In this document: positions 9,441-64,000 of the stretch, piece by piece
Layout: every line of letters begins with the position of its first letter
Numbering within the stretch: the first letter of the stretch is position 1
NCBI GenBank assembly: GCA_021647245.1
Contig: JAKIVC010000002.1
Span: 64,184 to 128,183 of the forward strand
Direction of reading: 5' to 3'
DNA length: 64,000 nucleotides
From: Gammaproteobacteria bacterium
Lineage (GTDB): Bacteria > Pseudomonadota > Gammaproteobacteria > RBG-16-57-12
Program-made: the position numbers and the translations under genes
The notes under the pieces: model-generated
What the model saw: the letters and a program-made list of their open reading frames with translations, nothing else
Database searches by the model: none
Told to the model about the DNA's origin: nothing

Positions 9441-10016
9441 ATGAACACAACAGACTCCTTAAAAAACAACCTTTTGATTGCCATGCCCGGTATGGAGGAT
9501 GGCAATTTCTCCAAAACGGTTACCTATATTTGTGAACATACAGACGATGGCGCAATGGGCTTGATTCTCAGTATTCCCCTCGATATTACTTTCCGCCAAG
9601 TGGTAGGGCAGGTGGATAAAACCTTGTCACAGCGTGAAATGGACAAGTGCATCGATGATATCCCGGTCTATCTGGGTGGCCCGGTAGAGCCTGAACACGG
9701 CTTTGTTTTGCATACACCACAGGGGGAGTGGAGTGCTTCTCTGAAATTGACAGATGACCTCATGTTAACCACTTCCAGCGATATTATCAGTGCCATTGCC
9801 ACCGGTGAGGGGCCTGATCAATACTTGGTGATGCTAGGTTACGCGGGTTGGGGTGGTGAACAGCTGGAGCATGAAATGGCGCAAAATGCCTGGCTCAATG
9901 TGCCGGCAGATATGGCCCCGCTATGGGGCGAGCCAGCGGAGAAGCGTTGGCAGAAAGCGGCCGCTTTGCTGGGTGTGGATTTGAGCCGCCTCTCTCCGGA
10001 TGTCGGGCATGCCTGA
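9441..10016 (+). CDS. YqgE/AlgH family protein
   Basis: 191 aa with the family pattern LLIAMPGMEDGNFSKTVTYICEH..GAMGLI..GGPV. It is syntenic with ruvX. Confidence 0.85.
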   Translation: MNTTDSLKNNLLIAMPGMEDGNFSKTVTYICEHTDDGAMGLILSIPLDITFRQVVGQVDKTLSQREMDKCIDDIPVYLGGPVEPEHGFVLHTPQGEWSASLKLTDDLMLTTSSDIISAIATGEGPDQYLVMLGYAGWGGEQLEHEMAQNAWLNVPADMAPLWGEPAEKRWQKAAALLGVDLSRLSPDVGHA

Positions 10017-62178: not shown

Positions 62179-62203
62179 GCTCGAACAGTTAAAAAATATG
62201 GCT

Positions 62204-62320
62204 CTATGTGAAATAGAGCGGGTAATTGAACTTTAGTTTTCCACAAAGAAAGTAAACCATATTGATGAAATTATCGATATTACGATAGCCTCTTGCTCGA
62301 CGTTTGGCGAGCTGAACCTT
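62204..62320 (-). pseudogene. 3' remnant of a DDE transposase gene (family uncertain, ISL3-like C-terminus)
   Basis: The minus-strand translation KVQLAKRRARGYRNIDNFINMVYFLCGKLKFNYPLYFT* resembles the conserved ..K.....K..A.G(Y/F)RN..NF......  tail of IS transposases. No upstream body is present. Confidence 0.4.
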
Positions 62321-62321
62321 G

Positions 62322-62341
62322 CTCCCAAATCCCCAGATAGG
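62322..62341 (+). repeat. solo terminus related to repeat family A
   Basis: ctcccaaatccccagatagg compared with the family A end cccctaatccccagataga. The 12-mer atccccagatag is identical and the flanks are similar. Confidence 0.4.
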
Positions 62342-62789
62342 ACTCCCTCCGACCTCTAAGAACCATTAACGAGGCTGTAGAAAAACCCACCCAGAGCCCC
62401 TTCCTACCTGCCCAGTGTCTATTCCACATCACTTTCAATGATAATCATCTTGTAGTCCGACATTGACCTGCCAATAGCGGTATTGGCGGCTATTGAGGGC
62501 TTTATTTGGCCTTTTCTTTACACTCAGTGGATTAGTTGTCCATAGTTGGCCAGCTTCTCTATATAGTGCACTATAAGCAGTAGCCTTGTACTTTGCTTTT
62601 TCCTCTCAGGCTAAAACGATTGAGTCCTTTATTGCTGCACATATTGGCGAATACGGGCTGACCGCCATGGACGCAAATGTGCCTTAGATTCTTAAAGATC
62701 AAGCCATATAGAAAACAATAGACCTCTAAATACATTATGTACAGACTTGACCCCTTTACTTTATCTGACCCCTTTATAAAATAAAAAGA

Positions 62790-63080
62790 ATGGTCAGCCA
62801 AAAAGTTGCCGTTGAAGAAGTGTCACCAACAAAAACAGAGGCTTATAATGAGGCCTCTGCACGTTTTATCCTTCACATTGATGGTTATGCTCACAACACA
62901 TCAATGACGCGATGCTTTGGTGGGTACATGTTTGAATACATTAATGTTGAGTTAATTGATGTAAGAACAAATGAAACAGCTTTACACTATTCAAATTCTG
63001 GCTATTCTGAAAACTGTCCGCCTTTATCAGGTACAATTTTTACTGATGTAGTTGAATTGGTCTCCGAAGTATGGGAATAG
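62790..63080 (+). CDS. orphan small protein (candidate integron-cassette ORF)
   Basis: 96 aa ORF in an AT-rich region with no recognisable family. Its stop lies 1 nt before the attC-like site, which is the typical cassette geometry. Confidence 0.4.
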   Translation: MVSQKVAVEEVSPTKTEAYNEASARFILHIDGYAHNTSMTRCFGGYMFEYINVELIDVRTNETALHYSNSGYSENCPPLSGTIFTDVVELVSEVWE

Positions 63081-63081
63081 C

Positions 63082-63172
63082 ACATAACACGGCGCTACAC
63101 CTGACTGCCCAAAGCGGCGCCGCTCGTGCCTCGCTCTGCCACTTTGGGCAGCAGGTGAGCTAAACGTTATGT
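63082..63172 (+). mobile_element. integron attC-like recombination site
   Basis: R'' is ACATAAC (63082-63088) and R' is GTTATGT (63166-63172); they are perfect reverse complements. The spacers acggcg / taaac are unpaired. L'' gctAcacctgActgcccaaagcgg pairs with L' ccactttgggcagcaggtgagc, leaving two unpaired extra A residues in L''. A central variable loop completes the R-box / unpaired spacer / L-box with extrahelical bases / variable-loop architecture. Confidence 0.7.
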
Positions 63173-63844
63173 GTTTTTACATGGTCGGGGCCATGAAGAA
63201 ACAAGCCCATCAATGTGCTCGTGAAGATCTGGATTTATATTGTTCCACATGGGGTCAAGCACAAAGTCAATACCTTCTCTACGTGCGAGTTTTGCGGCAG
63301 GAACAAAATCACTATCTCCAGCTATGAGAATTATTTGGTCAACCGATTTTTTGTATGCCAGTGAAGAAATATCTAGGCCAATTTTCATATCAACACCTTT
63401 TTGCCTAGCCTCGTATTTAACATCGCCTTCGGAAAGTTCATCGATTGAAATTTTGCTATTTAGCAGTTCTTTAGTTTTCTTCGCATTTATTACCCAATGA
63501 CCATCATCGGCTATTCTCCCGAATCGTAGGGCTACTTTCCTGAATCGCTTTAATTCTTGGTGAAATTCATTGCGAAATTTCGCTTCAGGAGTATCCCCAA
63601 AGCTAAATCCTTTTTTGGTAACAGGATTCTGCGCCCGCTTCGCAAGAGGAGGGCAGTCATAGAAGAAAATCCGATATAGCTCCTTCTTTTTGACTCCCTT
63701 GCTATTTACTTGTCGTAAATTACGCAGAAGACCGCTATAGAGGTCTCTTGCAACTTGGTTTGGAGATTTATCGCGCCAACCTGGATAGAGTGCTCGATAT
63801 CGTTTAATGAAGTAACTGCCGTCCACAAGTATCGCTGATTTCAT
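63167..63844 (-). CDS. NYN (LabA-like, PIN-related) domain protein
   Basis: 225 aa with AILVDGSYF (N-terminal Asp), QKGVDMKIGLD and ILIAGDSDFVPAAKLAR, the NYN acidic motifs. Its stop codon (TTA on plus, 63167-63169) is the TT-A of the attC R' core. Confidence 0.8.
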   Translation of the reverse strand: MKSAILVDGSYFIKRYRALYPGWRDKSPNQVARDLYSGLLRNLRQVNSKGVKKKELYRIFFYDCPPLAKRAQNPVTKKGFSFGDTPEAKFRNEFHQELKRFRKVALRFGRIADDGHWVINAKKTKELLNSKISIDELSEGDVKYEARQKGVDMKIGLDISSLAYKKSVDQIILIAGDSDFVPAAKLARREGIDFVLDPMWNNINPDLHEHIDGLVSSWPRPCKNT

Positions 63845-63866
63845 ATAAGCCTCTGTTTTTAGGCAT

Positions 63867-63924
63867 AAAAAAGCCCCGGATTTCGTGAGCCTCGCTATTG
63901 TTGGAGGCCCGTACTTTCCAGGGC
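63867..63924 (-). terminator. terminator-like structured element 22 nt upstream of the NYN start codon
   Basis: On the minus strand, GCCCTGGA...(inner hairpin GCCTC-CAACAATAGC-GAGGC)...TCCGGGGC is followed by TTTTTTA. RBS AGAGG and the ATG come next. Confidence 0.4.
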
Positions 63925-64000
63925 GCTATTCAACTTTGATTATGGTATATACACTATTCATAGTCAATGAACAAACATAATCGGGTAGCCAAGGGTCTCT

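What the first reader, a model, noticed from the sequence alone, without database searches (positions are those of the whole stretch)
63167..63844. Reverse-oriented NYN nuclease-domain gene filling a cassette from its first base
Seen: a 225-aa NYN/LabA-like protein is encoded opposite to the cassette orientation. Its stop codon coincides with the TTA of the attC core, so the ORF ends at the exact cassette boundary. Established: NYN domains are PIN-like RNases. Reverse-oriented cassettes typically carry their own promoter, as toxin-antitoxin cassettes do. Integron cassettes have recently been shown to carry anti-phage genes. Inference: a self-expressed single-gene nuclease cassette is a candidate toxin or defence effector. 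No partner gene is visible inside the window.
Basis: partly seen in the sequence, partly recalled or inferred. Interest (0 to 1): 0.5.

Follow-up and report, generated by a model that had tools for sequence, protein, structure and literature searches.

The report
RNA-guarded NYN nuclease integron cassette
A backwards-facing integron cassette carries a predicted RNA-cutting enzyme with its own promoter and a conserved folded leader RNA that precedes this enzyme family across many bacterial phyla, phages and plasmids, so the "missing partner" is probably an RNA.

Summary
A 225-aa NYN-fold protein (63167-63844, minus strand) lies antisense to a genuine attC (63082-63172), and its TAA stop is the TTA of the R' core. 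The far cassette boundary is also visible: the next attC begins at 63975 (ACATA) and is split at 63980 by a group IIC-attC intron on the minus strand, which independently fixes cassette orientation. No integrase is in the window, so this is a CALIN-like array beside housekeeping genes.

New here: the gene carries a sigma-70-like promoter and a 66-nt structured leader (63865-63930). The leader has two covarying helices, a sarcin-ricin-type internal loop and a U-tract terminator. It sits directly upstream of the NYN gene in 157 of 167 loci from at least eight phyla. It is a remote homologue of the orphan Staphylococcus aureus sRNA Teg147 (Rfam RF03535), which I show also lies 18 nt upstream of a NYN gene.

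There is no conserved protein neighbour. Homologues occupy the rexAB position of a lambdoid phage, other prophage cargo sites, a BREX-related locus, conjugative plasmids and genomic islands. Most homologues are not in cassettes.

Best reading: a self-contained, RNA-guarded nuclease conflict module captured as a cassette. The mechanism is inferred, not shown.

The parts
62790..63080 (+). 96-aa ORF of the preceding, forward-oriented cassette; function unknown
   Evidence: Listed as an ORF. No Pfam, NCBIfam, PADLOC or PHROG hit. It ends 1 nt before the attC.
63082..63172 (+). attC site. R'' ACATAAC is at 63082-88 and R' GTTATGT at 63166-72; the crossover lies between G63166 and T63167.
   Evidence: The ssDNA fold has z=-5.6, with two extrahelical bases on the '' arm and an unpaired central spacer.
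63167..63844 (-). NYN-domain (PIN-like) nuclease gene, 225 aa. The stop codon is 63169-63167.
   Evidence: phrog_5783, E=1e-83.
63850..63854 (-). Shine-Dalgarno-like AGAGG, 5 nt upstream of the ATG
   Evidence: Read directly from the sequence.
63865..63930 (-). Teg147-like leader RNA: P1 (8 bp), an AGUA/GAA sarcin-ricin-type internal loop, P2, then U6, forming an intrinsic-terminator-like end
   Evidence: Model R1 gives 64.1 bits, E=1e-14. MFE is -32 kcal/mol, z=-3.7. Covariation is shown. There is a sub-threshold Rfam TEG147 hit.
63939..63967 (-). sigma-70-like promoter TTGACT-17-CATAAT. It places the transcription start at about the first base of the leader motif.
   Evidence: 10 of 12 matches. 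Similar promoter spacing is visible in homologous loci.
63975..63979 (+). Left part (ACATA) of the R'' box of the NYN cassette's own attC, cut by the intron
   Evidence: Nucleotide homology to the 96%-identical relatives stops at 63976. A class 1 integron intron has the same junction, CCCGAT|TA.
63980..64000 (-). Last 21 nt of a group IIC-attC intron (domain VI end). The intron continues beyond the window.
   Evidence: Rfam Intron_gpII scores 49 bits against a cut-off of 40 on L001 200-269. The IEP C-terminus is about 80% identical to ltrA of integron introns. Context is shown. Nucleotide identity is 81% overall, with only 3 mismatches in the last ~80 nt, which include domains V-VI.

Best explanation
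The locus is a self-contained expression module that has been captured, in reverse orientation, as an integron cassette. The module consists of a promoter, a Teg147-like leader RNA with a built-in terminator, and a NYN ribonuclease gene.

Shown:
- The cassette anatomy.
- The NYN fold with intact acidic residues.
- The leader's conserved, covarying structure.
- The near-universal coupling of the leader to this NYN family on phages, plasmids, islands and chromosomes.

Inferred:
- Transcription from the cassette's own promoter mostly stops at the leader's P1 stem plus U-tract. This would yield an abundant ~60-65-nt RNA, as seen for Teg147 in S. aureus, and little NYN mRNA.
- The sarcin-ricin loop RNA is the nuclease's partner. 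It keeps the enzyme silent in cis by attenuation, and in some phyla by sequestering the ribosome-binding site.
- It probably also acts in trans by binding, in the way a type III toxin-antitoxin RNA does.
- When the RNA or the read-through balance is disturbed, for example by phage-induced transcription shut-off or loss of the element, the nuclease cuts cellular or invader RNA and arrests growth. That would give exclusion or addiction.
For: Anatomy.

NYN fold and residues.

Leader structure:
- In seed alignment A3, 85.9% of cells are paired against 68.8% in shuffles.
- All 15 pairs show compensatory changes.
- The covariation score is 0.584 against 0.254 (0 of 500 shuffles reach it); slid controls give at most 0.224.
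- An independent set gives 90.7% paired and 0.503 against 0.183.

Specificity of the leader:
- Across 1.37 Mb searched on both strands, 78 of 84 sources have the motif directly upstream of the NYN gene on the same strand. There was one stray weak hit.
- In loci not used for training, 79 of 83 have it.
- It is also upstream of the gene in phage phiE202, Streptococcus phage Javan85 and a Xanthomonas plasmid.

Link to Teg147:
- In S. aureus, Rfam TEG147 (86.6 bits) lies 18 nt upstream of the NYN gene.
- Teg147 is listed as a bona fide 60-nt sRNA (PMC5826253) and is placed on a genomic island (PMC3053349).
- Its loop is scored as a sarcin-ricin motif by JAR3D (PMC13085918).

Partner and context:
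- No conserved protein neighbour was found.
- Conflict or mobile-element contexts appear.
Against: - There is no experimental evidence for toxicity, RNA binding or phage defence.
- PADLOC gives only weak partial hits.
- About 90% of nearest neighbours in 80 genomes are ordinary metabolic or housekeeping genes.
- The leader is a single copy, not the tandem repeats of type III antitoxins.
- The protein is unusually conserved for a toxin: 50-80% identity across phyla.
- E. coli phage and Campylobacter plasmid relatives lack the sarcin-ricin loop and carry only a plain or degenerate hairpin.
- The same architecture fits simple cis autoregulation.
Confidence: 0.45

Rival explanations
1. The enzyme is a cis-autoregulated accessory RNase with no toxin or defence role. 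The leader is only a feedback site where the NYN protein binds or cleaves its own 5' UTR, as RNase E, RNase III and PNPase do. The gene is a benign RNA-processing enzyme that happens to be mobile.
For: - The leader and gene are strictly 1:1 and adjacent in cis.
- The protein is highly conserved.
- Most neighbours are housekeeping genes.
- No defence-model match was found.
Against: - In the known autoregulated RNases, as I recall them (own knowledge), a strong intrinsic terminator built into the conserved structure is not part of the leader; here it produces a discrete small RNA, as reported for Teg147 in PMC5826253.
- The gene recurs at prophage immunity or cargo sites, in a BREX-related locus and on conjugative plasmids.
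- Its distribution is patchy, and its chromosomal position varies.
Confidence: 0.3
2. It is a counter-defence or establishment gene that benefits the mobile element. The nuclease would be made briefly when a phage, plasmid or cassette enters a cell, to degrade host or competitor RNA. The leader would limit expression afterwards.
For: The family is present on 168 plasmid records, mostly conjugative, near the relaxase and an SNF2 protein in Campylobacter pTet, and on 65 phage records.
Against: In the lambdoid phage the gene lies downstream of cI on the same strand, at the rexAB position. In λ, genes at that position are expressed in the lysogen (own knowledge). In the window it sits in a chromosomal array.
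Confidence: 0.1
3. The leader is a small-molecule riboswitch whose ligand stabilises or opens the terminator stem.
For: It has a conserved internal loop, covarying helices and an expression-platform-like terminator.
Against: - The whole element is a single interrupted hairpin with no separate aptamer.
- The conserved loop is a standard sarcin-ricin protein-binding module (PMC13085918).
- The motif is tied to one protein family rather than to a metabolic regulon.
Confidence: 0.07
4. It is not a cassette. The palindrome would be a chance repeat or terminator, and the NYN gene an ordinary chromosomal gene.
For: - No integrase is present and only one complete attC lies in the window.
- Homologues are almost never cassette-borne.
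Against: - The element has canonical attC architecture with extrahelical bases.
- A second R'' box is split by a group IIC-attC intron at the same junction seen after the catB3 cassette of a class 1 integron (PMC3001079).
- GC content falls from about 0.50 to about 0.41 from roughly 62250 onwards.
- The 96% relative also ends in ACATAAC, diverges immediately after it, and lies next to an intI pseudogene.
Confidence: 0.03

Closest known systems
Staphylococcus aureus sRNA Teg147 (Rfam RF03535 TEG147)
   Same: It has the same architecture: P1, an AGUA/GAA sarcin-ricin loop, P2 and a U-tail. It has the same position, 18 nt upstream of an orthologous NYN gene on the same strand at the edge of a genomic island. 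TEG147 is the top Rfam hit at the motif in three distant loci.
   Different: The window's leader scores 25.4 bits against a gathering score of 56.1, so it is not a member by Rfam's threshold. Teg147 is catalogued only as a Staphylococcus small RNA. None of the papers found in the nine library searches run links it to the NYN gene or reports its spread across at least eight phyla.
Type III toxin-antitoxin systems (ToxIN, CptIN, TenpIN)
   Same: The order is promoter, structured RNA, intrinsic terminator, then an endoribonuclease gene. The elements are mobile, and a single protein gene has no protein partner (own knowledge of ToxIN; anatomy).
   Different: The RNA is a single hairpin rather than tandem repeats. 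The protein has a NYN/PIN-like fold, not a ToxN/AbiQ fold. Processing and inhibition are untested.
LabA-like / NYN-domain proteins (VPA0982, PDB 2QIP; MARF1 NYN, 5YAA and 6FDL)
   Same: They share the fold and the acidic active-site pattern.
   Different: No sequence-level match to any PDB chain was found. About 100 residues lie between strand 1 and the part of the protein matched by the Pfam NYN model (residues 114-192). The family forms its own distinct 225-aa clade (phrog_5783).
Reverse-oriented, self-promoted toxin-antitoxin and anti-phage cassettes of chromosomal integrons
   Same: The gene is antisense to the array, has its own promoter, and is a compact single cassette. The general pattern is from my own knowledge.
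   Different: There is no protein antitoxin and no integrase nearby. The family is overwhelmingly found outside integrons.
Lambda rexAB and other lysogen-expressed exclusion genes
   Same: In phage ev099 the NYN homologue lies between cI and N, which is the rexAB position.
   Different: It is unrelated in sequence and has one gene rather than two. The E. coli phage version carries a plain hairpin terminator rather than the sarcin-ricin leader.
Group IIC-attC introns (S.ma.I2-type) of class 1 integrons
   Same: The intron at 63980 onwards has a near-identical 3' end including domains V-VI, an IEP tail about 80% identical, an antisense orientation, and the same insertion point in R'' (PMC3001079).
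   Different: Only its last ~270 nt are available. The host is an uncultured gammaproteobacterium, not a clinical plasmid.

Membership tests
Integron gene cassette | An attC with inverse-core R'' (RYYYAAC) and core R' (GTTRRRY) that pair | tested here: met
   ACATAAC and GTTATGT at 63082-88 and 63166-72
Integron gene cassette | Bottom-strand hairpin with an unpaired spacer and extrahelical bases on the '' arm | tested here: met
   The ssDNA fold gives -28.8 kcal/mol, z=-5.6, with two bulged bases on the 3' arm of the bottom strand
Integron gene cassette | A second attC closing the cassette | tested here: inconclusive
   Only ACATA of R'' (63975-79) is visible before the intron. Both known contigs end inside the intron.
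Integron gene cassette | An integron integrase and attI next to the array | tested here: not met
   tblastn with an IntI fragment found nothing in the window. The left flank carries typA and a lipid A acyltransferase. The array is therefore CALIN-like.
NYN domain nuclease (PF01936) | Profile score above Pfam's gathering threshold | tested here: met
   43.4 bits against 24.2
NYN domain nuclease (PF01936) | PIN-like NYN fold | tested here: met
   pLDDT 89.6; the top hits 2QIP and MARF1 NYN have probability 1.00
NYN domain nuclease (PF01936) | Conserved acidic active-site residues | tested here: met
   D8, D152, D177 and D179 are invariant in 25 homologues. Their mapping to catalytic positions is inferred from motif position, not from coordinates.
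NYN domain nuclease (PF01936) | Metal-dependent ribonuclease activity | not testable with these tools
   Requires a biochemical assay
Rfam RF03535 TEG147 | Covariance-model score at or above the gathering score (56.1 bits) | tested here: not met
   The window locus scores 25.4 bits, L011 27.4 and L060 20.2. The S. aureus locus scores 86.6.
Rfam RF03535 TEG147 | Same secondary structure and same position upstream of an orthologous gene | tested here: met
   Model R1 hits the S. aureus TEG147 site (32.1 bits, E=2e-7), and both lie upstream of NYN genes
Type III toxin-antitoxin | An RNA gene and terminator immediately upstream of an endoribonuclease toxin gene | tested here: met
   Architecture only
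Type III toxin-antitoxin | The antitoxin RNA is made of tandem repeats | tested here: not met
   No tandem repeat lies in the leader; there is one motif per gene
Type III toxin-antitoxin | Toxin of the ToxN/AbiQ-type fold that processes and binds the RNA | tested here: not met
   The fold is NYN. Processing and binding cannot be tested here.
Known anti-phage defence systems (PADLOC-DB 2.0) | Full-length match to a system component model | tested here: not met
   Only 45-residue partial hits, to NYN PDLC01154 (E=6e-6) and HEC-09 (E=8e-4)
Group IIC-attC intron | Domains V-VI, an integron-type IEP, and antisense insertion in R'' of an attC | tested here: met
   PMC3001079. The 5' part of the intron lies outside all available contigs.

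The most novel reading that the evidence does not exclude
The Teg147-like RNA and the 225-aa NYN protein form a previously unrecognised, pan-bacterial class of RNA-protein toxin-antitoxin or abortive-infection module. In this reading a single sarcin-ricin-loop hairpin RNA, made in excess because its own stem is the terminator, binds and neutralises the nuclease. The RNA might do so by mimicking the nuclease's natural target, such as a ribosomal bulged-G loop. The module would spread as a single unit on phages, plasmids, genomic islands and occasionally integron cassettes.
Probability: 0.2. Interest if true: 0.85.

Novelty: new variant of a known kind. Interest (0 to 1): 0.65.

Why it matters
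- It would give a function and a partner to two orphans at once: the S. aureus sRNA Teg147, and a very large family of stand-alone NYN proteins (phrog_5783). That family has more than 8000 clusters at 90% identity. Members are found in Stx2a-converting phages, Campylobacter pTet-type and Xanthomonas plasmids, and beside the ssl toxin genes of S. aureus.
- If the RNA restrains the nuclease, this is a new RNA-protein toxin-antitoxin or defence architecture built on a sarcin-ricin loop.
- It shows that a ready-made, self-regulated module can be packaged as a reverse integron cassette.
- It shows that 'single-gene' cassettes may hide RNA partners.
- The group IIC-attC intron beside the cassette, a close relative of those in clinical class 1 integrons, links environmental cassette arrays to the clinical integron pool.

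Tried and rejected
- **Home-made attC detector.** A scan for R''/R' pairing plus fold energy was too unspecific at first: about 20 hits per 64 kb, the same as in shuffled sequence. After tightening, it found a real attC next to the gene only in the window's own locus. It may miss divergent attCs.
- **Conserved protein partner.** I clustered the four genes on each side in 86 loci. The largest neighbour cluster covered 7 loci. Pfam gave 142 families for 147 neighbours. A conserved protein partner is rejected.
- **intI or attI in the window.** None was found. The region 62179-62789 remains unexplained.
- **Upstream side of the 96% relative (L085).** I read it for an attC and saw no hairpin; only an intI pseudogene is there.
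- **Sequence search of the PDB.** It returned nothing, even at E=10.
- **Literature.** Searches combining NYN with integron, type III toxin-antitoxin, riboswitch, anti-phage or prophage exclusion found no description of this family or of the RNA-gene link.
- **Alternative readings of the leader.** I considered a k-turn and rejected it because the 5' strand has no GA. I considered reading the conserved 5' 'AU' as a -10 box and rejected it because the T at position 6 is not conserved.
- **Sequence beyond the window.** Both known contigs stop inside the intron.

Full report
**Observation**

The ORF 63167..63844 on the minus strand encodes 225 aa starting at ATG. It matches Pfam NYN (PF01936) at 43.4 bits against a cut-off of 24.2. 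An AlphaFold2 model built on 25 homologues has mean pLDDT 89.6. Its best PDB matches are NYN structures: VPA0982 (2QIP) and the MARF1 NYN domain (5YAA, 6FDL), all with probability 1.00. D8, D152, D177 and D179 are invariant across homologues of 58-85% identity. No PDB sequence matches, even at E=10.

**The attC and cassette orientation**

- Directly downstream of the stop lies a 91-nt imperfect palindrome, 63082-63172.
- Its terminal heptamers ACATAAC and GTTATGT pair with each other.
- Folded as single-stranded DNA, the minus strand gives -28.8 kcal/mol, z=-5.6.
- The fold shows an 8-bp R box, a 4+4 unpaired spacer, and two bulged bases on its 3' arm.
- In the canonical attC (own knowledge), the extrahelical bases lie on the '' arm of the bottom strand. 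The minus strand is therefore the bottom strand and the plus strand is cassette-sense.
- The 96-aa ORF 62790-63080 is the forward gene of that cassette.
- The recombination point G|TTATGT puts the first cassette base at 63167.

**The far boundary and the intron**

The exact protein occurs on contig JAKITL010000019 of a Gammaproteobacteria MAG. That contig extends 249 nt past the window.

- Rfam finds group II intron domains V-VI there (49 bits against a cut-off of 40) on the NYN strand.
- The intron ends at window position 63980.
- It is preceded by the C-terminus of an intron-encoded protein.
- That peptide is about 80% identical to ltrA of introns on enterobacterial resistance plasmids.
- In plasmid pIMP4 the corresponding intron sits antisense, immediately after the catB3 cassette of a class 1 integron.
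- The two introns are 81% identical over 269 nt, with only 3 mismatches in the last ~80 nt, which include domains V-VI. They share the junction CCCGAT|TA.
- PMC3001079 states that group IIC-attC introns insert into the bottom strand of attC sites, opposite to cassette transcription.

On the plus strand the window reads AACAAACATA|intron. The NYN cassette's own attC therefore begins with R'' ACATA|AC at 63975, and the intron independently confirms that NYN is antisense to the array.

Nucleotide homology to the 96%-identical relatives L085-L088 runs from 63183 to 63976 and stops there. At the other end, those relatives also finish in ACATAAC and diverge immediately afterwards.

No integrase is in the window. 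The left flank carries typA and a lipid A acyltransferase. GC content drops from about 0.50 to about 0.41 from roughly 62250 onwards. The array is therefore CALIN-like, at least on this side.

**The family**

The protein belongs to a very large family of ~225-aa proteins. More than 8000 clusters at 90% identity were found in each of two searches. It corresponds to phrog_5783, of unknown function.

In 80 species genomes from Proteobacteria, Acidobacteria, Bacteroidota, Verrucomicrobiota, Planctomycetota, Spirochaetes, Firmicutes and others, the neighbours are almost all different:
- The largest neighbour cluster covers 7 loci.
- 147 nearest neighbours hit 142 Pfam families, mostly housekeeping ones.
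- Only a handful hit defence models.

There is no conserved protein partner. An attC next to the gene was found only in the window's own locus among 184 loci, using a crude detector.

**The leader RNA**

Upstream regions of nearly all homologues share a motif:
- a conserved AU, then an 8-bp helix P1;
- the sequence CAGUAM;
- a variable hairpin P2 that begins with GC;
- GCCGAR, then the P1 return strand and a U-run;
- 0-40 nt later, the start codon.

Evidence for the structure and its specificity:
- On a 54-sequence MAFFT alignment, all 15 pairs show compensatory changes.
- 85.9% of cells are paired against 68.8% in shuffles.
- The covariation score is 0.584 against 0.254 (0 of 500 shuffles reach it), and at most 0.224 for slid partners.
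- A covariance model found the motif directly upstream of the gene, on the same strand, in 78 of 84 sources across 1.37 Mb. There was one stray weak hit. The window hit is 63865-63930(-) at 64.1 bits, E=1e-14.
- In 83 loci not used for training, it found the motif in 79. There, 90.7% of cells are paired and covariation is 0.503 against 0.183.
- Frequent G-U pairs on the sense strand indicate an RNA transcribed with the gene.
- In the window the leader folds at -32 kcal/mol, z=-3.7.
- A TTGACT-17-CATAAT promoter at 63967-63939 places the transcription start at about the first base of the motif. Comparable spacing is visible in many other loci.

**Identity of the leader**

No Rfam family reaches its gathering score on 20 loci. 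However, the top sub-threshold hit at the motif is the same family, RF03535 TEG147, in three distant loci.

I fetched a S. aureus member of the protein family. There, TEG147 scores 86.6 bits and lies 18 nt upstream of the NYN gene. My model hits the same site. The locus has a GmrSD gene upstream and ssl genes downstream.

What the literature says about Teg147:
- It is listed as a bona fide 60-nt sRNA of unusually high GC content (PMC5826253).
- It is assigned to a genomic island (PMC3053349).
- It was added to Rfam in a teaching course (PMC7779021).
- Its internal loop is scored as a sarcin-ricin motif by JAR3D (PMC13085918). This agrees with the AGUA/GAA pattern I read in the alignment.

No paper found links Teg147 to the NYN gene.

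**Contexts on mobile elements**

| Element | Position of the NYN homologue | Calls |
|---|---|---|
| Phages overall | 65 records, 48 of them Stx2a-converting | 79 |
| Lambdoid phage ev099 | Between cI and N, the rexAB position | 82 |
| P2-like phage phiE202 | After the portal gene and a toxin-antitoxin pair, before the integrase | 83 |
| Streptococcus phage Javan85 | Between integrase and repressor | 84 |
| Metagenomic prophage | Near the Cro/repressor genes | 52 |
| Type-2 BREX-related locus | Between DUF3780 and the DUF1156 methylase | 26; PMC12839542, |
| Nitrosomonas-like contigs | Downstream of a type I restriction gene and a VapBC pair | 51 |
| Plasmids | 168 records, mostly conjugative | 80, 85, 86 |

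The sarcin-ricin leader is present in phiE202, Javan85 and the Xanthomonas plasmid. The more distant E. coli phage version has a plain long hairpin plus U7. The Campylobacter version is degenerate.

**Interpretation**

Shown: the anatomy and the RNA-gene coupling.

Inferred: the P1 stem plus U-tract acts as an intrinsic terminator, so most transcripts end as a ~60-65-nt RNA and little nuclease is made. In phyla where the ATG follows the U-run directly, the purine-rich P1 return strand lies at Shine-Dalgarno distance. It would be sequestered by P1.

The conserved protein-binding loop points to recognition by a protein, most economically by the NYN enzyme itself. Promoter, RNA, terminator and RNase is the layout of type III toxin-antitoxin loci. 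However, the RNA here is not repeated and the protein fold is different. The module is therefore not a member of that family.

I favour an RNA-guarded conflict module at 0.45 over a purely cis-autoregulated benign RNase at 0.3. The data cannot separate cis action from trans action. No toxicity or defence has been shown.

Noticed in passing
window 63980-64000 (-), continuing in L001 1-269: This is the 3' end of a group IIC-attC intron closely related to those of clinical class 1 integrons. It is inserted in the R'' box of the NYN cassette's attC. It is probably why both known assemblies break here.
   Followed up: yes
window 62790-63080 (+): The 96-aa cassette ORF has no hit in Pfam, NCBIfam, PADLOC or PHROGs. 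Its left cassette boundary is unclear: the candidate cATTATGT at 62733-40 has A where G is expected. A Logan contig ends at 62729.
   Followed up: partly
window 62179-62789: This 611-nt non-coding, low-GC stretch lies between the acyltransferase gene and the first cassette. No attI or intI remnant was recognised. A 20-mer, AACGAGGCTGTAGAAAAACC (62368-87), recurs with one mismatch at L085 2169-88, downstream of the 96% NYN relative, among CTGTAG-containing direct and inverted repeats.
   Followed up: partly
L085 234-1075: An integron-integrase pseudogene lies upstream of the 96%-identical NYN module on the same strand. It has an N-terminal SAM-like domain, an internal deletion, and a C-terminal HxxR..Y region in another frame. 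No attC lies between the pseudogene and the module.
   Followed up: partly
L004 5373-5460 (-) (same contig as L098): Rfam sRNA-Xcc1 (RF02221, 76 bits), described in the literature as integron-associated (own knowledge), lies about 370 nt upstream of the 77%-identical NYN homologue. The locus also carries a type I restriction gene and a VapBC pair.
   Followed up: no
alignment A4, columns 1-6 versus 52-57 (window 63930-63925 and the P2 loop): The hexamer before P1 and the hexamer before the P2 3' strand both contain a near-invariant AU. They tend to be identical within a sequence (AAUAGC and AAUAGC in the window). At the three variable positions they match 1.45 times on average against 0.92 expected, and 0 of 2000 shuffles reach that. 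They could be two binding or cleavage sites.
   Followed up: partly
L076 7554-7620 versus NYN at 10001: In one Methylomarinum genome the leader lies 2.4 kb upstream of the gene, which suggests an insertion between leader and ORF.
   Followed up: no
L043, L052, L056, L069 (Flavobacteriales): The leader has a different, longer inner hairpin that the covariance model missed but that is visible by eye. This points to a sub-family of the motif.
   Followed up: no
L083 8281-9795: In the 86%-identical relative, a HerA/DUF87 ATPase gene lies immediately upstream of the leader and NYN gene. This is seen in that genome and in a matching Logan contig (L084).
   Followed up: no
L187 4868-4994 and L186 2340-2420: In E. 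coli lambdoid and related phages, the longer NYN homologue (285 aa, 40% identity) at the rexAB position is preceded by a long perfect hairpin plus U7 instead of the sarcin-ricin leader. A terminator therefore lies between cI and the nuclease gene.
   Followed up: partly
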